Source of the DNA: a phage
DNA length: 64,000 nucleotides
Sequence record: NC_103192.1
Reading direction: 5' to 3' (one strand)
The notes beneath the pieces are model-generated. The model ran no database searches, was not told the origin of the DNA, and saw nothing but the letters and a program-made list of their open reading frames with translations. This document shows, piece after piece, positions 5,106 to 59,890 of the stretch (position 1 is the first letter of the stretch; every line of letters starts with the position of its first letter). Both the position numbers and the translations under genes were made by a program.

Positions 5106-8100
5106 ATGAGCATGTATAGCTTCGATTTTGAGGCCTCCGGGCTTTTGGAAGATCCAGATCTTTATTATCACTGCGGCCTGTTTAAAGAGCTGAATAAGAA
5201 CCGTTTTATGCTGTTCCTCCCTCTAAATGACCGCACACACTACTCCGAGGAGGATATAGAGAAGGCTAAGAACTTTATTCTGGCAAAGAAAACTCTTTAT
5301 AAAGATTTTGAAGTTCGCATAGCAGATTTTTCAGAGTTGGAAGGTTGGCTTACAGGCAATTCTGACTGGTCACCAACAGCTTTGAACTGCCATAACTGCT
5401 ACAGTTATGACTTTATGCTGATGGAGAGATTATCCGGTATTCATTTTGATATGTTCCGTGATCCTAAATGCATGGGTACTATCAACGATCACCAGGTTAA
5501 CCTGTTTGATACGTTGGCGATGAGCCGAATCTTGTGGCCTGATCGCCCTTTACCAAAAGGTTGCCCGGACGCTGTATTCAACCCGGTTACTAAGAAAATG
5601 CAGCCTGTTGGTCCTCACGGCCTTATGGCATGGGGCTACGCTCTTGGTAACCAGAAAGTTCAAATTGATGACTGGCGCGATCTTCCGCTGTGGAAGTATG
5701 TGGATCGTGTATTTGAGGACGTTATCATCCAGGAGCTGCTCTGGAAAGAGCTAGTAGCGGAATCAAAAGGTGTATTCTACGGCAAATCTGACATGCAGAA
5801 CTTCATGTATGACCCTGCCAAAGAGAAGCCTAAAGGATTCAAGAAGATTACCTGGAAGAATGCATTACGCCGAGGCATGCTGCAGCACTTCCTGATGGAG
5901 CTGCAGGCCCGTCAGGGTGTGTATTTCGACATAGATGGGGCTATTGCTTTACGTGACCGTTGCGATGCGTGGATGAAAGAGATCGCTGATCGTGTTGAAC
6001 CTCAACTCCCTTTAAAAGAGTTGTCAATATCTCAGCGGCCCAAGTTCCCTGAAAAGCCGTTTAACCAAGATGGGACAATCTCCAATAATGGTTGGAAATG
6101 GTTAAAAGATAAGCTTGGCTACCCTGTGGACATGAGCGCTTTAGATTTCAAAGCCCCACCTAAGCGAGCATTTACCTCCACAGGAGATGTCAGTAAGATG
6201 GGGATAAAATGGTGTGAAGAGATGGGCTGCAAAGACCCCGATAAGATGGCTGCTTTCTTGAGAGGCTATATTAAGGGCACTTCCACACCACAACCTTTAC
6301 CTAAAGAGCTGATGGATCAGGCAATAAGTGATCTACAGCAGAAGCGAATGCCTGACTGCAAGATACCTATGAAAATCAGCAATCAGGACGACATTAAGCG
6401 ATACCTGATCAGTGCTGGTTGGCTTCCGACAATGTGGAGAACTAAGGATGTAACTAAAGACAGCAAGAAGAAAGCTCTACCTGATGCAGATGTTGATGCA
6501 CGAGTATATGCATATATGGACGAGCTTTTAGAGTCAGAGTATTGTGACCTAATTATCAACTTCTGGAACAAAACTGATGCTAAGTTTCAGACAACAGTGC
6601 ACAAGTTCCGAAGCTTTCCTAACTCCGAAAGGATTAAAAAGGAAGTATTCGGGAAAATACGCAGAAAAGCTAGGGCACTTATTACTTCCCCGCAACTGAA
6701 AGATACGTTTGGACACCTATGCCCGAATCTTGAAAGATTGAACGGAGAGATGGCTAAAGATATCGTCTTGTGGTTATCATTGCGAAACCGCAGATCGGTA
6801 CTTGATCCAATCAAGGAGGATAAGGTTGATACTGGTCTTCTTAATCACCCACGTTTGAAGATTGACCATAAGCTTCCTGCTAAAAGCTCTGGATTAACAA
6901 ACACTTCCCGACAGAAACACAGTATTTGTGCAAACATGCCTAAACCATCTCCTAAAGTGGTTATGGGTAAAGAGATGCGTAGTCTGTGGGGTGTTCCTCC
7001 AGGATACTTTGAGATCGGTATTGACGGGTCTAACTTGGAGCAGCTTATCGGGGCTTGGGGTGCCTTTGAGTTCGACAACGGCCTGTATTACGATGTTGTA
7101 AGTAACGGCGATGCACACTGTTATTCAGGAGATACACAAATTCTCACGGAGAAAGGGTGGGTGAGGTTTGAAGATCTTGATCCGGGAACACAAGTGTTCC
7201 AGTACGATCACAACACCTCGTCGATGAACCTTGTTACTCCATTAAATTACGTTAAGCGTAGTTATTGTGGGGATATGTATCATTTCCACAACAGCGGTGT
7301 GGATTTTATGGTTACAGATCAACACAGGATGCTGACCGTGGATCACAGAAGCAATAAATTGTTTGAAGATTTGGCAAAAGACCTGAAAGCAGGTAAAGGG
7401 TCTAATTCAGGAAGAAGGTTTATCCATGCGGCAGAGTTTTATGGGAATACAACCTTATCTCCTGCCCAGGTTAATTTGCTTATTGCTATTCACGATGATG
7501 GGCACTTGCATACAAATAAGGACGGCAGCATCGTGTGCAGGATTCAGGTCGGGAAGGGCAGAAAAGTTGCAACGCTTTTAGATACTTTTTCTGCTCTAAG
7601 CCTTAGTTATGTAGAGCAGAGCGGGAAAACCACAAAAGGGGGCTTACTGGCGAGAAGGTTCCAATTCCACGTTCCGTCCTGGGTATTTGAGTTTTTGGAC
7701 AGCAATAAGGATTTCACCTACAACCTGATGGACCTTGATAAAGAATCTAAAAACCTGTTTATAGCTTCTTTATCTAACTGGGACGGGTGGGTATCTTCCG
7801 AAGGTGGAAAAGTTGCCTACTACTCTCAGGCCGAGTGCAGGAAGAAATCTGTAGAGGTTGTGTCTGCGCTGGCTACTCAGTGTGGTTTACGGAATAATAC
7901 GGTAGCGATTCACAAAAAAGGTCGTTCCGTACAGCACAGAATCACGATTGGTAGCAAACAGAGAGCAGGGTTGCTGACACTATCTAAAGAGTCTGTCGAG
8001 GTGAGCGGTTCTTTGGTTTATTGCGTTACCGTCCCTTCTGGAGCAATCATTGTGAGAAGGAATGGTAAAGTGGCAGTGTGCGGTAACTGTAATAACGCCA

Positions 8101-8498
8101 AAGCTTACTCTTCTGTAGCAGGCAAGGAGATTTCCCGTAACGATGGTAAGCCTGTCACGTACGGTGTTATGTACGGGGCACAAAAAGATAAAGTTGCAGA
8201 TATGCTGGACATCTCTCCAGAGTTGGGACAAAGGGTAATCGATGCGCTTTGGGATGCCAACCCCGGTCTTAAGGGGCGTAAAGAGGATCTGGAGAAATTC
8301 TGGGAAGCAACTGGTAAGAAGTTTATCTACTCTTTTGATGGTCATGCCATCTGGACCCGATCTAAACACTCTTTACTTAATGCATACCAACAAAATGGTG
8401 GTGCATCGTTGTGTGACTTAGTTGGGATACTCATGCACCACCAAATGGTGAAGCGTGGGTGGTACGATGAAGGTGTTCGCCGTATTATCTATTACCAT
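5106..8498 (+). CDS. family A DNA polymerase, exon 1 (contains intein 7119..8087)
   Basis: 3'-5' exo motif FDFEASGL; Pol A motif A IGIDGSNLEQ and motif B RNDGKPVTYGVMYGAQ flanking intein; ORF stop 8502..8504 lies in intron. Confidence 0.85.
7119..8087 (+). mobile_element. intein (about 323 aa) with LAGLIDADG-type homing endonuclease-like insert, in DNA polymerase between motifs A and B
   Basis: N-terminal block CYSGDTQILTEKGW, C-terminal ...VYCVTVP...VCGN followed by +1 Cys; internal LLIAIHDDGH and LFIASLSNWDGW dodecapeptide-like motifs; exteins rejoin to ...SNGDAH|CNNAKAY... matching T7-like spacing. Confidence 0.75.
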
Positions 8499-8826
8499 AA
8501 ATAACATTGTGGCTTCGTGCAGTGATGCACGTCGAAAACCTCTTTAATTGACGGGAAGGCTAAGTTGACTTTTACACCTAAACATGGTAAAAGCTCGATA
8601 TGCTAATCCGCAGCGAAGCATCCGAGAGGATGAACGTTCAGAGACTATCGAAAGCATAGCTCCAGCATAGTTTGGTGTGAAGAAGCGAGTAGAGTAGGCC
8701 AGCAAGTGCGGTCGAAATGAGAGGTGCCTTGGTAACAAGGCAGTGAGATAGTCCGATCCATACGGGAAACTGTATGGCTATGCACGTAATGGTGCGGGGT
8801 AGCTTAACGACCTACCTGAACTATTG
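8499..8826 (+). ncRNA. group I self-splicing intron (no ORF) in DNA polymerase motif C
   Basis: Exon ends on U (..YYH, cat) with IGS-like GUGG at intron nt 10-13; core elements P-like ttgacgggaagg, Q-like aatccgcagcg, R gttcagagactatcgaaagc, S gagatagtcc; terminal G at 8826; splicing restores YYHDEYQLQV (Pol A motif C HDE). Confidence 0.75.
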
Positions 8827-9180
8827 GATGAGTACCAACTTCAAGTACCTGACACACCGAAGTATAAGACTGTGTACACCTTCGACACAATCGAAGAACT
8901 GGAAGCATTTAAGGCAGAGCAGGAGGCCAAACTTCATGTGTTCGACGGTCATAAGTACAAAAAGGCACGCAAGGATGAGGACGGAAACGAAGTGGTTGAC
9001 AGAGACGGAAACACGGTGTACGATCCTATCCTGAACGATGACGGAAAGCTTGAACTTATCTGGAGCCCTGTGGGTGAAATGGTGGTGCATTGCTTCTGGC
9101 AAGCTTCTAAAATGATGGGCGTCCCATTCCAGATCACAGGTGAATACTTGTGTGGGGCTAATTGGGGTAGTTGTCACTAA
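8827..9180 (+). CDS. family A DNA polymerase, exon 2 (C-terminal 117 aa)
   Basis: Begins DEYQLQV completing motif C; ends ...GANWGSCH, which I recall as resembling the T7 DNA polymerase C-terminus. Confidence 0.8.
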   Translation, partial: DEYQLQVPDTPKYKTVYTFDTIEELEAFKAEQEAKLHVFDGHKYKKARKDEDGNEVVDRDGNTVYDPILNDDGKLELIWSPVGEMVVHCFWQASKMMGVPFQITGEYLCGANWGSCH

Positions 9181-58330: not shown

Positions 58331-59890
58331 TCAGCCCTCTTTAGCATCAATATACTTGCACACAATCTCAGATGCGCACTCCCAAGGAGCTCCCTCGGGG
58401 TTAACAACATCAAACTCGATACCTTTTATCCCGTTCTTCTCTAAGCTAAGGTAAGTTCTGGAATCATTTCCCCAATCATATCCTGCACGGTGGATACGGA
58501 ACAGTAGAAGATCGCCACCTGTGCTGTATGCGTACTCGCCAAGGCATGCCAGCTCCTCTTTGAAGCCACCGTCGGAGTAAACAACAACCCCTTTACCTTC
58601 AGGGAAATCTTTCTTCAAGGATGCGACTGCGGCCTTACCGAAAGCATCTTCACCAAAGATAGGTTTAATCAGATTTTCACTACAATGGATCATCCATTCT
58701 CGCGGAGAAACATGCTTGCCGTCTATCATTAAGAACGGGCACGGTTCTTCTTTGTAGCGGCGATCATAAAGTGCATTCCACAACTGTGGTGAAATACCCG
58801 CTGCCTTAATTGCCACACTGAATAGCATTTCCTTTACCTCGCGGTGATGCGAGTTTGGAATGGCTTCCAACAAAAGATCTGCGATATGGTCTTTTCCACT
58901 GTTACCTGTTAAAAACACCATACCGTTTTGTCTTGCCACCCAAAATCCGGTTGTTGTGGTAAAGCAGTAACACTTACCCCCAGGTAACTCCTCTTTGTAA
59001 GGTTGAAAAGCTTTATCTGGATTATCATATCCGCCACTTTTACGCATCGAATAAGAGTCTGACTTTAGAATTTTTACCGCATAGCAAACGCTACGAGTTC
59101 TGCTCTCTTTATCACACTCCCTTTTGTAGTTATCTATTTCAATTTTGGCCTTTCTTCCACATTTTGCTGCTAAAAGCTGAAACAGATCTGCCTCCTCTTT
59201 AGAAGTGGTTGAGAAAGATTTGTATTTCTCGCACCCATCCCATTTCAGCATCTCGTTTAGTAGTTTTTCACTAGCATTAGAAGAGAGATTCCACCAATGG
59301 CTAGGTATACCATCTTTCTTCATGAAAGGGCTGTTGTAAATGAAAAAACGGGTGTAGCCAGGCATACTATCAAACTCTTTTTCGGAAAAGGTTACTCCAG
59401 TTCTTTTAAATAAGTATCGTAGCCTCTCCTTTTTACGGTCCTTTTTAATATTAAACATCAAAACACCCTCCCGATTTTTAACCTCAGAGGAGTCTGCTAA
59501 GATTGCAACTCTAAGCAGGTCAAAATCGTCAACATCCTCTCCAGATTCTTGATGGAAGGTGGCAGGTATATATCCATCGTAGCCAGTTTTGGATTCCAAA
59601 GTTATCTCTGACCACTCTCTAGCAATTCTTGATCCTCTTCTGTTTTCATACAGAACTTTGTGGTTAGGTGTTAAAACCATGGACCATGTGGCAAAAACGC
59701 CCTTTTCAAAAACTGGAGTATTGCCTTCAATAAATTCAGGTATCTCCCAATGCATTGCCCCAAATTTATCGCACACTGCCACGAAATCATTATCAAAATC
59801 TTCTATACTTTTCCACCCAGATTTGGTGAGGAACTCTGTACCACTCGGGACGCAGCACGGTGGAGCGTTAAGAACAATAATATCCATCAA
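58331..59890 (-). CDS. deoxynucleoside monophosphate kinase precursor (contains intein 58901..59854)
   Basis: Exteins MMDIIVLNAPPC + SGKDHIADLL... give P-loop LNAPPCSGKD, resembling T4-type dNMP kinase N-terminus (LSGVKRSGKD). Confidence 0.7.
   Translation of the reverse strand: MMDIIVLNAPPCCVPSGTEFLTKSGWKSIEDFDNDFVAVCDKFGAMHWEIPEFIEGNTPVFEKGVFATWSMVLTPNHKVLYENRRGSRIAREWSEITLESKTGYDGYIPATFHQESGEDVDDFDLLRVAILADSSEVKNREGVLMFNIKKDRKKERLRYLFKRTGVTFSEKEFDSMPGYTRFFIYNSPFMKKDGIPSHWWNLSSNASEKLLNEMLKWDGCEKYKSFSTTSKEEADLFQLLAAKCGRKAKIEIDNYKRECDKESRTRSVCYAVKILKSDSYSMRKSGGYDNPDKAFQPYKEELPGGKCYCFTTTTGFWVARQNGMVFLTGNSGKDHIADLLLEAIPNSHHREVKEMLFSVAIKAAGISPQLWNALYDRRYKEEPCPFLMIDGKHVSPREWMIHCSENLIKPIFGEDAFGKAAVASLKKDFPEGKGVVVYSDGGFKEELACLGEYAYSTGGDLLLFRIHRAGYDWGNDSRTYLSLEKNGIKGIEFDVVNPEGAPWECASEIVCKYIDAKEG
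58901..59854 (-). mobile_element. intein (about 318 aa) inserted in P-loop of dNMP kinase
   Basis: N-block CVPSGTEFLTKSGW (compare polymerase intein CYSGDTQILTEKGW); C-terminus ...GFWVARQNGMVFLTGN followed by +1 Ser; internal LLRVAILADSS LAGLIDADG-like motif. Confidence 0.7.

What the first reader, a model, noticed from the sequence alone, without database searches (positions are those of the whole stretch)
7119..8087. Intein with LAGLIDADG-like endonuclease between Pol A motifs A and B
Motif A (IGIDGSNLEQ) and motif B (RNDGKPVTYGVMYGAQ) are separated by about 340 residues instead of about 25. The insert has a canonical intein start (Cys, CYSGDTQ...), ends ...VCGN with +1 Cys, and carries two dodecapeptide-like motifs. 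Removal gives ...VSNGDAH|CNNAKAYSS..., matching T7-like spacing. Unusually the penultimate residue is Gly rather than His.
Basis: partly seen in the sequence, partly recalled or inferred. Interest (0 to 1): 0.7.

Follow-up and report, generated by a model that had tools for sequence, protein, structure and literature searches.

The report
Homing intein in phage DNA polymerase
The 969-base in-frame insert in this rV5-like E. coli phage's DNA polymerase gene is a genuine self-splicing intein carrying a LAGLIDADG homing endonuclease, and its odd C-terminal "Gly-Asn" is the norm for a large, little-described phage intein family, so it is a new example of a known kind of element.

Summary
Confirmed. 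Window 7119-8087 (+) is a 323-aa in-frame insert in the family A DNA polymerase of an rV5-like Vequintavirus. About 117 of 123 related phages lack it, and the boundaries are exact.

It sits directly after the His equivalent to T7 gp5 active-site His506. An AlphaFold model (pLDDT 93.7) matches endonuclease-bearing inteins (TliVMA, PI-SceI), a mini-intein (AceL NrdHF) and LAGLIDADG enzymes (I-DmoI, I-SceI).

Full-length homologues sit in NAMPT, NrdA, NrdB, PhoH, ThyX and other proteins. About 8,100 cluster representatives match.

The penultimate Gly is not an anomaly. In 155 family instances it is Gly in 91%, and block F position 4 is Cys in 100%. Two relatives with Gly-Asn ends splice experimentally, and changing Gly to His impairs both.

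New points:
- Intein-less alleles have Gln, not Cys, at +1.
- All four intein-bearing alleles examined share a foreign 69-nt 3' extein tract that brings the Cys.
- Intein copies are 99.8% identical in polymerases 3.4% diverged, and a second lineage shows dN/dS 0.08. Both indicate an active, mobile element.
- The sequence signature is a hybrid of class 1 and class 3.

The same gene also holds a group I intron, and a second intein of the same family lies at 58901-59854 (-).

Novelty: new member of a known kind.

The parts
5106..7118 (+). N-extein: N-terminal 671 aa of the family A (T7-like) DNA polymerase, ending ...VVSNGDAH. The His aligns with T7 gp5 His506.
   Evidence: (phrog_17 E=1e-56)
7119..8087 (+). 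Intein, 323 aa, Cys1 to Asn323
   Evidence: Exact indel against intein-less alleles; full-length homologues in unrelated host proteins; AF2 pLDDT 93.7 and Foldseek hits to PI-SceI and TliVMA inteins
7119..7157 (+). Splicing block A (CYSGDTQILTEKG), with Cys1 nucleophile
   Evidence: Cys in 149/155 family instances; Hint_2 / TIGR01445 N-terminal matches
7296..7337 (+). Splicing block B (GVDFMVTDQHRMLT): Thr66 (B:7), His69 (B:10), Arg70 (B:11), Met71 (B:12)
   Evidence: T/S 100%, H 100%, R 57% in the family; same H-R-M as AceL NrdHF His68-Arg69-Met70 (PMC7891396)
7425..7931 (+). LAGLIDADG homing-endonuclease domain (about residues 103-271), two alpha-beta-beta-alpha-beta-beta-alpha halves
   Evidence: AF2 secondary structure; Foldseek hits to I-DmoI and I-SceI, TMt about 0.6; Pfam LAGLIDADG_3/_1 on family members; dN/dS 0.080
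7467..7505 (+). LAGLIDADG motif 1 (QVNLLIAIHDDGH), putative catalytic Asp127
   Evidence: Asp in 148/155; helix 115-127 in the model
7752..7790 (+). LAGLIDADG motif 2 (NLFIASLSNWDGW), putative catalytic Asp222
   Evidence: Asp in 148/155; helix 208-221 in the model
8013..8066 (+). Splicing block F (LVYCVTVPSGAIIVRRNG), with invariant Cys302 at F:4 where standard inteins have Asp; no block F His
   Evidence: Cys in 155/155; F:4 is usually Asp in standard inteins and Cys in class 3 (PMC2807308)
8067..8090 (+). Splicing block G (KVAVCGN|C): Cys321 (G:5), Gly322 (G:6, penultimate), Asn323 (G:7), and the +1 Cys codon TGT at 8088-8090
   Evidence: G:6 Gly 91%, G:7 Asn 89% / Gln 10%, +1 C/S/T 99%
8088..8156 (+). 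Foreign (co-converted) 3' extein tract, shared by all four intein-bearing alleles examined and absent from intein-less ones. It supplies the +1 Cys where intein-less alleles have Gln (CAA).
   Evidence: 22/69 nt differ from Bas59 against 3.5% in the rest of the gene, P=1e-15; dS saturated
8088..8498 (+). C-extein, part 1 (motif B / O-helix region), up to the 5' splice site of the intron (...TAC CAT)
8499..8826 (+). ORF-less group I intron (328 nt) interrupting motif C between His and Asp of ..YYH|DE..
   Evidence: Rfam RF00028 73.7 bits, E=8e-17; boundaries from the uninterrupted Bas59 gene
8827..9180 (+). C-extein, part 2 (exon 2, DEYQLQV... to the stop codon)
   Evidence: (phrog_8888 E=8e-58), 54: the doubly spliced product is 925 aa, 912 identical to the Bas59 polymerase

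Best explanation
Window 7119-8087 encodes a bifunctional intein. A HINT protein-splicing domain (residues 1-102 and 272-323) is interrupted by a monomeric double-motif LAGLIDADG homing endonuclease (about residues 103-271). It is inserted in the fingers subdomain of an rV5-like phage family A DNA polymerase, immediately after the active-site His that corresponds to T7 gp5 His506.

The polymerase is made as a precursor that cannot be functional until two things happen: the mRNA loses a group I intron (8499-8826), and the protein excises the intein and joins ...NGDAH to CNNAK... by a peptide bond.

Most likely chemistry (inferred): the standard four-step pathway. Cys1 forms a thioester, the acyl group transfers to Cys+1, Asn323 cyclises, and an S-to-N shift completes the bond. 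Block B Thr66/His69 activate the N-junction. Arg70 (B:11) takes over the role of the missing penultimate His in Asn cyclisation, as shown for Arg69 of the related AceL NrdHF intein.

At the DNA level (inferred), the endonuclease cuts intein-less polymerase alleles during mixed infection, and repair copies the intein in. The resident allele has Gln at +1, so a viable conversion must also copy at least the first codon of the 3' flank. In fact a roughly 69-nt foreign tract travels with the intein.
For: Shown by tools:
- The indel is exact and the distribution sporadic: 6 of 123 related phages carry it.
- Full-length homologues (26-31% identity) are embedded in NAMPT, NrdA, NrdB, PhoH and ThyX of unrelated phages. 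8,114 cluster representatives match at E<=1e-3, and hosts include DNA polymerases A and B, RNA polymerase and a protease.
- Family residues: Cys1 96%, B:7 T/S 100%, B:10 His 100%, Asn/Gln terminus 99%, +1 Cys/Ser/Thr 99%, both LAGLIDADG Asp 95%.
- AF2 model pLDDT 93.7, pTM 0.91. Foldseek: TliVMA intein E=6.6e-15, PI-SceI E=5e-14, AceL NrdHF TMt 0.79, I-DmoI / I-SceI TMt about 0.6.
- The profile hits PDB 6zgq at E=5.7e-9.
- The window intein aligns end to end with the mycobacteriophage Bethlehem RDF intein (Cys95...Gly-Asn411|Ser, E=3e-11).

From the literature:
- The Bethlehem RDF intein splices completely, its G316H mutant accumulates precursor, and its endonuclease is toxic in E. coli (PMC5050341).
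- AceL NrdHF has the same H-R-M / Cys / x-Gly-Asn residues. G145H kills its activity and R69A slows it (PMC7891396).

Evidence of mobility and function:
- Intein DNA differs from Mangalyan's at 2 of 969 positions, while the exteins differ by 3.4% (P=2e-12).
- A second lineage (VB-EcoM-WM) is 88% identical in DNA, with dN/dS 0.083 overall, 0.087 in HINT and 0.080 in the endonuclease domain.
- Orthologous inteins 62-76% identical sit at the same site in two IMG/VR contigs whose polymerase is 75% identical.
- Removing intein and intron in silico gives a 925-aa protein, 912 residues identical to the uninterrupted Bas59 polymerase.
- The site is catalytic: T7 H506 is an active-site hydrogen-bond donor (PMC5984650; alignment).
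Against: - No experiment on this intein exists. Splicing and DNA cleavage are inferred.
- On the window sequence alone, Pfam Hint_2 (23.1 bits against a 28.4 cutoff) and TIGR01445 (15.7 against 24.5) are below threshold, and no LAGLIDADG model hits.
- Both histidines that normally assist Asn cyclisation (block F and G:6) are absent. Block F position 4 is Cys rather than the usual Asp, so the assumed class 1 chemistry is not secure.
- The endonuclease's cognate target is unknown. The resident intein-less alleles differ at 15 of the first 30 nt 3' of the insertion site, so they may be poor substrates. General recombination, rather than homing, could also explain the near-identical copies.
Confidence: 0.88

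Rival explanations
1. Same element, different chemistry. Splicing is initiated, or obligatorily routed, through the invariant block F Cys302, as in class 3 inteins. A branched thioester forms at Cys302 and is then transferred to Cys+1. Cys1 is dispensable, auxiliary, or a redox partner.
For: - F:4 Cys is conserved in 155/155 family instances, more than Cys1 at 96%.
- The only significant solved sequence relative is AceL NrdHF, a proven class 3 intein (E=5.7e-9). It shares His-Arg-Met in block B, Cys at F:4, and (Thr/Ser/Cys)-Gly-Asn at the end (PMC7891396).
- Family members at the very same polymerase site begin with Ala, Lys or Ser instead of Cys, yet keep F:4 Cys and Gly-Asn|Cys (P0047, P0012, P0011). 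They cannot use class 1 initiation.
- Standard inteins normally have Asp at F:4 (PMC2807308).
Against: - Cys1 is present and 96% conserved, and block B has the class 1 TxxH motif.
- The class 3 Trp at B:12 is absent (Met), and G:5 is Cys, not Thr, in this copy.
- +1 is Cys, whereas class 3 inteins nearly always have Ser/Thr (PMC2807308).
- Kelley et al. treat the homologous RDF intein as class 1 (PMC5050341). No C1A or F:4 mutants were found in the accessible text.
Confidence: 0.25
2. The intein still splices, but its endonuclease is no longer active on contemporary Vequintavirus alleles. It persists by vertical descent and ordinary homologous recombination, at a late stage of the homing cycle.
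For: - Only 6 of 123 related genomes carry it.
- Resident empty sites differ at 15 of 30 nt next to the insertion point.
- No empty allele with the intein-type flank was found in INPHARED or IMG/VR.
Against: - Both catalytic Asp residues are intact.
- dN/dS in the endonuclease domain is 0.080, as low as in the splicing domain.
- Intein copies are 99.4-99.8% identical inside polymerases 3-3.5% diverged.
- The homologous RDF intein endonuclease is toxic, hence active, in E. coli (PMC5050341).
Confidence: 0.12
3. The insert is not excised. It is a lineage-specific accessory domain, or an in-frame fusion of a free-standing homing endonuclease gene, tolerated within the polymerase fingers.
For: On the window sequence alone, no curated intein model passes its threshold. 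The penultimate His is missing.
Against: - The endonuclease is flanked on both sides by HINT halves with every junction residue intact.
- The same module occurs in dozens of unrelated enzymes, always bounded by Cys...Gly-Asn|Cys/Ser/Thr.
- It splits the polymerase directly after an active-site His, between motifs A and B.
- At least six independently isolated viable phages carry it.
Confidence: 0.02

Closest known systems
Mycobacteriophage Bethlehem RDF (gp51; GenBank gp52 'phosphoesterase') intein, Kelley et al. 2016, mBio (PMC5050341)
   Same: Same family. It aligns end to end (317 against 323 aa; blastp E=3e-11). It shares Cys1, block B TxxH, two LAGLIDADG motifs, block F 'V-W/Y-C-x-x-V-P', and a C-terminal (Thr/Cys)-Gly-Asn followed by a nucleophile. 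It has been shown experimentally to splice fully with penultimate Gly and to carry an active (toxic) endonuclease.
   Different: Only 20% identical. The host protein is a calcineurin-like RDF, not a polymerase. +1 is Ser and G:5 is Thr. The host phage infects actinobacteria.
AceL NrdHF naturally split class 3 intein (PDB 6zgq; PMC7891396)
   Same: It is the closest solved sequence relative (E=1.7e-5 single sequence, 5.7e-9 profile) and the best mini-intein structural match (TMt 0.79). It shares His-Arg-Met in block B, Cys at F:4, Gly-Asn at the C terminus, and the absence of both assisting histidines. Its Arg69 compensates for the missing His.
   Different: AceL NrdHF starts with Ala1, is split, has no endonuclease, and uses Cys124 (F:4) as the proven first nucleophile. 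The window intein has Cys1, is contiguous, carries a LAGLIDADG domain, and has Cys at G:5 and at +1.
PI-SceI (Sce VMA1) and TliVMA/PhoVMA inteins: canonical class 1 inteins with a LAGLIDADG endonuclease (PDB 1vde, 7qsu, 7qst)
   Same: Same overall two-domain architecture and the best whole-molecule structural matches (E=7e-15 to 1e-11, TMq 0.6-0.68).
   Different: 11-14% sequence identity. They have Asp at F:4 and His-Asn at the C terminus, extra DNA-recognition regions, a larger size (360-450 aa), and V-ATPase hosts in yeast and archaea.
Selfish elements of the related Vequintavirinae phage CB7 (Certrevirus), PMC7344957
   Same: Same phage subfamily. Its DNA polymerase gene is interrupted by self-splicing introns with HNH genes (splicing verified by RT-PCR). 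LAGLIDADG inteins are reported in its helicase and NrdA, and a mini-intein in NrdB.
   Different: No intein is reported in its DNA polymerase. The window has one ORF-less intron rather than two HNH-carrying ones.

Membership tests
Intein (HINT-domain protein-splicing element) | In-frame insertion in a conserved site of a host protein, absent from close homologues | tested here: met
   Exact 969-nt indel against APECc02, Bas59 and rV5; 6 of 123 relatives carry it; the site is after the T7 His506 equivalent
Intein (HINT-domain protein-splicing element) | N-terminal Cys/Ser (block A) and block B TxxH | tested here: met
   Cys1; Thr66-x-x-His69. Family: Cys 96%, T/S 100%, His 100%
Intein (HINT-domain protein-splicing element) | C-terminal Asn (or Gln) followed by Cys/Ser/Thr at +1 | tested here: met
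   Asn323|Cys. Family: Asn/Gln 99%, +1 C/S/T 99%
Intein (HINT-domain protein-splicing element) | Penultimate His (block G:6). Typical but not obligatory. | tested here: not met
   Gly322, and Gly in 91% of the family. Relatives with Gly splice, and Gly-to-His is deleterious (PMC5050341, PMC7891396)
Intein (HINT-domain protein-splicing element) | HINT fold | tested here: met
   AF2 pLDDT 93.7; Foldseek hits to TliVMA, PI-SceI and AceL NrdHF; profile hit to 6zgq at E=5.7e-9
Intein (HINT-domain protein-splicing element) | Curated sequence models (Pfam Hint_2 / Intein_splicing, TIGR01445) above threshold | tested here: inconclusive
   Window: Hint_2 23.1 bits against 28.4; TIGR01445 15.7 against 24.5. 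Three of 9 aligned homologues hit Intein_splicing, best E=7e-7
Intein (HINT-domain protein-splicing element) | Homologous element in unrelated host proteins | tested here: met
   NAMPT, NrdA, NrdB, PhoH, ThyX, RDF, dNMP kinase, Pol A/B, RNA polymerase beta and others
Intein (HINT-domain protein-splicing element) | Autocatalytic excision with extein ligation | not testable with these tools
   Needs a reporter splicing assay or proteomics
LAGLIDADG homing endonuclease (monomeric, two-motif) | Two LAGLIDADG helices, each ending in a conserved acidic residue followed by Gly | tested here: met
   LLIAIHDD127G and SLSNWD222G; Asp in 95% of the family at each; helices 115-127 and 208-221
LAGLIDADG homing endonuclease (monomeric, two-motif) | Tandem alpha-beta-beta-alpha-beta-beta-alpha fold | tested here: met
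   DSSP pattern of the model; Foldseek hits to I-DmoI, I-SceI, I-WcaI and bI3 maturase, E=1e-6 to 3e-5
LAGLIDADG homing endonuclease (monomeric, two-motif) | Pfam LAGLIDADG model match | tested here: inconclusive
   No hit on the window sequence. LAGLIDADG_3 / LAGLIDADG_1 hit some aligned homologues and many database relatives
LAGLIDADG homing endonuclease (monomeric, two-motif) | Site-specific cleavage of the intein-less allele | not testable with these tools
   Indirect only: dN/dS 0.08 in this domain, and near-identical copies in diverged backgrounds
Class 1 (standard) inteins | Cys1/Ser1 initiates; block F:4 usually Asp; assisting His in block F and at G:6 | tested here: inconclusive
   Cys1 and TxxH are present. 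But F:4 is Cys (100% of the family), there is no block F His, and G:6 is Gly
Class 3 inteins | No N-terminal nucleophile | tested here: not met
   Cys1 in the window and in 96% of the family. A few members at the same Pol A site start with Ala/Lys/Ser
Class 3 inteins | WCT triplet (Trp B:12, Cys F:4, Thr G:5) | tested here: not met
   The window has Met71 / Cys302 / Cys321. Only the Cys matches. This resembles the MCT variant of AceL NrdHF (PMC7891396). Family G:5 is Thr 43%, Ser 31%, Cys 14%

The most novel reading that the evidence does not exclude
The window intein belongs to a very large phage/metagenomic clade: about 8,100 clusters at 50% identity. The clade's signature is Cys1 + TxxH-R-(M/C/L/V/I) + invariant block F Cys + (T/S/C)-Gly-Asn. 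It may be a mechanistic bridge between class 1 and class 3 inteins. On this reading the invariant Cys302 is an obligatory branch-point nucleophile, or it forms a regulatory disulfide with Cys1. Cys1 is retained in most members but has already been lost in some at the very same polymerase site. Polymerase maturation, and hence phage replication, would then depend on a two-cysteine relay that could sense redox state.
Probability: 0.25. Interest if true: 0.6.

Novelty: new member of a known kind. Interest (0 to 1): 0.42.

Why it matters
1. Annotation. In all six GenBank phage genomes that carry it, the gene is labelled only 'DNA polymerase' or 'hypothetical protein'. The essential replicase of these candidate therapeutic E. 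coli phages actually needs both RNA splicing and protein splicing to mature.

2. Intein biology. The intein-less allele has Gln at +1, and the Cys arrives on a 69-nt foreign tract. This is a clean natural case where invasion of a non-permissive site requires co-conversion of extein sequence. It also suggests why spread is limited to 6 of 123 genomes.

3. Mechanism. The copy is a tractable E. coli-phage representative of a huge Gly-Asn / block-F-Cys intein family. That family's catalytic class is unresolved and curated models largely miss it.

4. Tools. Fast-splicing Gly-Asn inteins with Cys+1, and their LAGLIDADG enzymes, are potential protein-engineering and genome-editing reagents.

Tried and rejected
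- A single-sequence search of the 5.8-billion-protein word-indexed database found nothing. This was a limit of the word index, not absence: the exhaustive HMMER search found 8,114 relatives, and the profile search found 90.
- Direct Pfam and NCBIfam scans of the window sequence gave only sub-threshold N-terminal HINT hits and a spurious adenovirus penton match. I therefore relied on family alignment, structure prediction and fold search.
- I considered shifted C-terminal boundaries, because MAFFT placed the DNA gap at 7117-8085. I rejected them because the family alignment fixes ...Gly-Asn|Cys, and only 7119-8087 gives the canonical junctions.
- I considered a native-domain reading and a reading as a fused free-standing endonuclease. 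Both were rejected (see rival explanations).
- Literature searches for an intein in rV5-like / Vequintavirus polymerases or in Pol A generally found no description. Tori & Perler 2011 on class 3 inteins with N-terminal nucleophiles is not held, so its results could not be used.
- An IMG/VR scan for an empty, intein-less allele with the intein-type flank (GDAH-CNNAKAY) found none. The same flank with the intein was found in two divergent contigs.
Full report
**1. What is in the sequence**

ORF 5106-8504 (+) encodes 1132 aa with family A polymerase similarity on both sides of a central block (phrog_17 and phrog_8888). The block begins CYSGDTQ... at 7119 and ends ...KVAVCGN at 8087, followed by Cys (TGT, 8088-8090).

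Megablast places the window in the rV5-like Vequintavirus myophages of E. coli. Of 123 matching phage records, six cover the insert: Mangalyan, NHEP1, YP-6, 241Ecol014PP, EPFV3-03/2025 and VB-EcoM-WM. The rest align over 75% of the query and lack it.

Against the intein-less genes of APECc02, Bas59 and rV5 the difference is exactly 969 nt / 323 aa:
- window: ...NGDAH[insert]CNNAKAYSS...
- intein-less...NGDAH-QNNAEAYTK....

The insertion falls immediately after the residue aligned to T7 His506, one of four active-site hydrogen-bond donors (PMC5984650). Only the quoted spacings are slightly off: 41 and 364 residues rather than about 25 and about 340.

**2. It is an intein**

On the window sequence alone, curated models are weak. 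Hint_2 scores 23.1 bits against a cutoff of 28.4, and TIGR01445 scores 15.7 against 24.5. All other evidence agrees:

- *Homologues in unrelated hosts.* tblastn finds 201 phage records with a full-length homologue (26-31% identity) embedded in unrelated enzymes. These include NAMPT (Staphylococcus Kayvirus, Citrobacter Tr1), NrdA (T5-like Salmonella phages), NrdB (Tenacibaculum and Pseudanabaena phages), PhoH and ThyX (Acinetobacter phages), and many mycobacteriophage proteins.
- *Family size.* An exhaustive HMMER search of 1.84 billion cluster representatives gives 8,114 hits at E<=1e-3.
- *Family termini.* Across 155 full-length instances, the first residue is Cys in 149. The last two residues are Gly-Asn in 131 and Gly-Gln in 10. 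The following residue is Cys in 107, Ser in 37 and Thr in 10.
- *Invariant or near-invariant columns.* These are Cys1, Thr/Ser66, His69 (block B TxxH), Asp127 and Asp222 (95% each), Cys302 (100%), Gly322 (91%) and Asn323.
- *Structure.* An AlphaFold2 model built on a 38-sequence alignment has mean pLDDT 93.7 and pTM 0.91. It shows a beta-rich N-terminal part (1-102), two alpha-beta-beta-alpha-beta-beta-alpha units (115-264) and a beta-rich C-terminal part (272-322).
- *Fold search against the PDB.* The top hits are endonuclease-containing inteins: TliVMA 7qsu (E=6.6e-15, TMq 0.68), PI-SceI 1vde (E=5e-14) and PhoVMA. Next come the AceL NrdHF mini-intein (TMt 0.79) and the monomeric LAGLIDADG enzymes I-DmoI and I-SceI (TMt about 0.6).
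- *Sequence profile.* A 9-member profile hits AceL NrdHF (6zgq) at E=5.7e-9.
- *Pfam on relatives.* Pfam Intein_splicing and LAGLIDADG_3/_1 match several family members.

**3. The penultimate Gly**

Gly at this position is the family rule, not a defect.

The window intein aligns end to end with the mycobacteriophage Bethlehem RDF intein (Cys95...Thr-Gly-Asn411|Ser; E=3e-11). Kelley et al. showed that this intein splices to completion. Its G316H mutant accumulates precursor. Its endonuclease was toxic enough in E. coli that only an inactivating mutant could be cloned (PMC5050341).

The nearest solved relative, AceL NrdHF, also ends Thr144-Gly145-Asn146 and lacks both assisting histidines. G145H abolishes its activity because it clashes with block B Arg69. 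That Arg hydrogen-bonds the C-scissile carbonyl, and R69A slows splicing (PMC7891396).

The window has the same His69-Arg70-Met71. Arg is the commonest residue at B:11 in the family (57%). My inference is that Arg70 substitutes for the missing His in Asn cyclisation.

**4. Which mechanistic class?**

The signature is a hybrid.
- Class 1 features: Cys1 and TxxH.
- Class 3-like features: the invariant Cys at block F:4, where standard inteins have Asp (PMC2807308), Thr/Ser/Cys at G:5, and closest kinship to a proven class 3 intein.

Three family members inserted at the same polymerase site begin with Ala, Lys or Ser. They keep F:4 Cys and Gly-Asn|Cys (P0047, P0012, P0011), so they cannot use class 1 initiation.

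I commit to class 1 initiation by Cys1 as most likely for this copy. I give about 25% to an obligatory role for Cys302 as nucleophile or redox partner. Only mutagenesis can decide.

**5. Evidence that the element is alive and mobile**

- The intein DNA differs from Mangalyan's at 2 of 969 positions and from 241Ecol014PP's at 6 of 969. The flanking extein DNA differs by 3-3.5% (P=2e-12 for Mangalyan). That implies recent transfer between diverged polymerase genes.
- VB-EcoM-WM carries a second lineage: 116 of 969 nt differ (88% identity), while its exteins are 96.4% identical to the window's. Between the two lineages dN/dS is 0.083 overall, 0.087 in the splicing domain and 0.080 in the endonuclease domain. 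Both activities are therefore under purifying selection.
- Two IMG/VR contigs (121 and 139 kb) have polymerases 75% identical to the window's. They carry orthologous inteins (62% and 76% identical) at the same site with the same ...CGN|CNNAKAYS junction.
- More distant Pol A proteins carry family members at GD(S/P/I)H|...GN|(T/S) (P0008, P0010, P0020, P0023). The site is therefore an old, recurrent home for this intein family.

**6. The +1 residue and the foreign flank**

The three intein-less Vequintavirus alleles I read have Gln (CAA) at +1, which cannot support splicing. T7 has Thr507 there.

The four intein-bearing alleles I examined share a distinct 3' tract. Against Bas59, 22 of the first 69 nt differ, with 15 of those in the first 30 nt. 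The rest of the gene differs by 3.5% (P=1e-15). In the tract dS is saturated and dN is 0.21, against dN 0.005 and dS 0.17 elsewhere. On the 5' side only two synonymous differences, within the last 10 nt, track with the intein.

A tblastn search with the spliced 99-aa junction finds no full-length match above 93.9% among 109 intein-less records. A degenerate DNA scan of IMG/VR finds no empty allele with the intein-type flank.

I infer three things. The intein entered rV5-like polymerases from a more distant polymerase, together with a short piece of its own C-extein. Every viable transfer must co-convert at least the +1 codon. The divergence of the resident site may limit cleavage, which fits the 6-of-123 prevalence.

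**7. Context in the gene**

The ORF stops at 8504 because a group I intron interrupts motif C (...IIYYH|DEYQ...).
- Rfam RF00028 matches 8489-8776 at 73.7 bits.
- Comparison with the uninterrupted 925-aa Bas59 gene fixes the intron at 8499-8826 (328 nt). The 5' exon ends in U and the intron ends in G.
- This intron has no ORF. Mangalyan and APECc02 carry an HNH endonuclease gene in the equivalent intron.
- Removing both elements in silico gives 925 aa, 912 identical to Bas59.

Related Certrevirus CB7 has experimentally verified introns in its polymerase, and inteins in other genes but not in the polymerase (PMC7344957).

**8. Novelty and verdict**

I found no annotation of this intein in the six GenBank records. 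I found no paper describing an intein in Vequintavirus or other Pol A polymerases in the searchable library.

The kind of element is well known, and so is its Gly-Asn peculiarity (PMC5050341, PMC7891396). This is therefore a new member of a known kind.

Three aspects are worth following up: the imported +1 Cys tract, the two co-circulating intein lineages, and the unresolved class 1 / class 3 signature. Interest 0.42.

Noticed in passing
window 8499-8826 (+): An ORF-less 328-nt group I intron (Rfam RF00028, 73.7 bits) splits polymerase motif C between His and Asp (...YYH|DEYQ...). Relatives Mangalyan and APECc02 have an HNH homing-endonuclease gene inside the equivalent intron. Bas59 has no intron at all. 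The polymerase therefore needs both RNA and protein splicing.
   Followed up: yes
window 58901-59854 (-), within ORF 58331-59890 (-): A second intein of the same family (318 aa, CVPSGTEF...CYCFTTTTGFWVARQNGMVFLTGN|S; family HMM E=2e-51). It is inserted in the P-loop (NAPPC|SGKD) of a deoxynucleoside monophosphate kinase; the spliced extein hits phrog_139 at E=1e-42.
   Followed up: partly
proteins P0047, P0012, P0011: Family A polymerases carrying the same intein family at the same DxH site, but starting with Ala, Lys or Ser instead of Cys. They keep the block F Cys and Gly-Asn|Cys, which makes them class 3-like variants of the family.
   Followed up: partly
L017 and L018 (IMGVR_UViG_3300045988_157310 and _140627): Two large viral contigs from one metagenome have polymerases 75% identical to the window's. 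They carry orthologous inteins (62% and 76% identical, 331 and 325 aa) with the same CGN|CNNAKAYS junction. They may represent the donor-type lineage.
   Followed up: partly
one search hit list: Seventeen records named 'Campylobacter phage' (host C. jejuni; for example MG065635 and MG065644) are 95-96% identical to this E. coli rV5-like polymerase region and are unannotated. They look like mislabelled or contaminating Vequintavirus genomes.
   Followed up: no
L014 (NC_011041 rV5) and L003 (OR062943): Reference annotations fragment the interrupted polymerase into several ORFs (rV5 gp223, gp222, gp221, gp220). None marks the intron or the intein, and exon 2 is unannotated in 241Ecol014PP and VB-EcoM-WM.
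   Followed up: no
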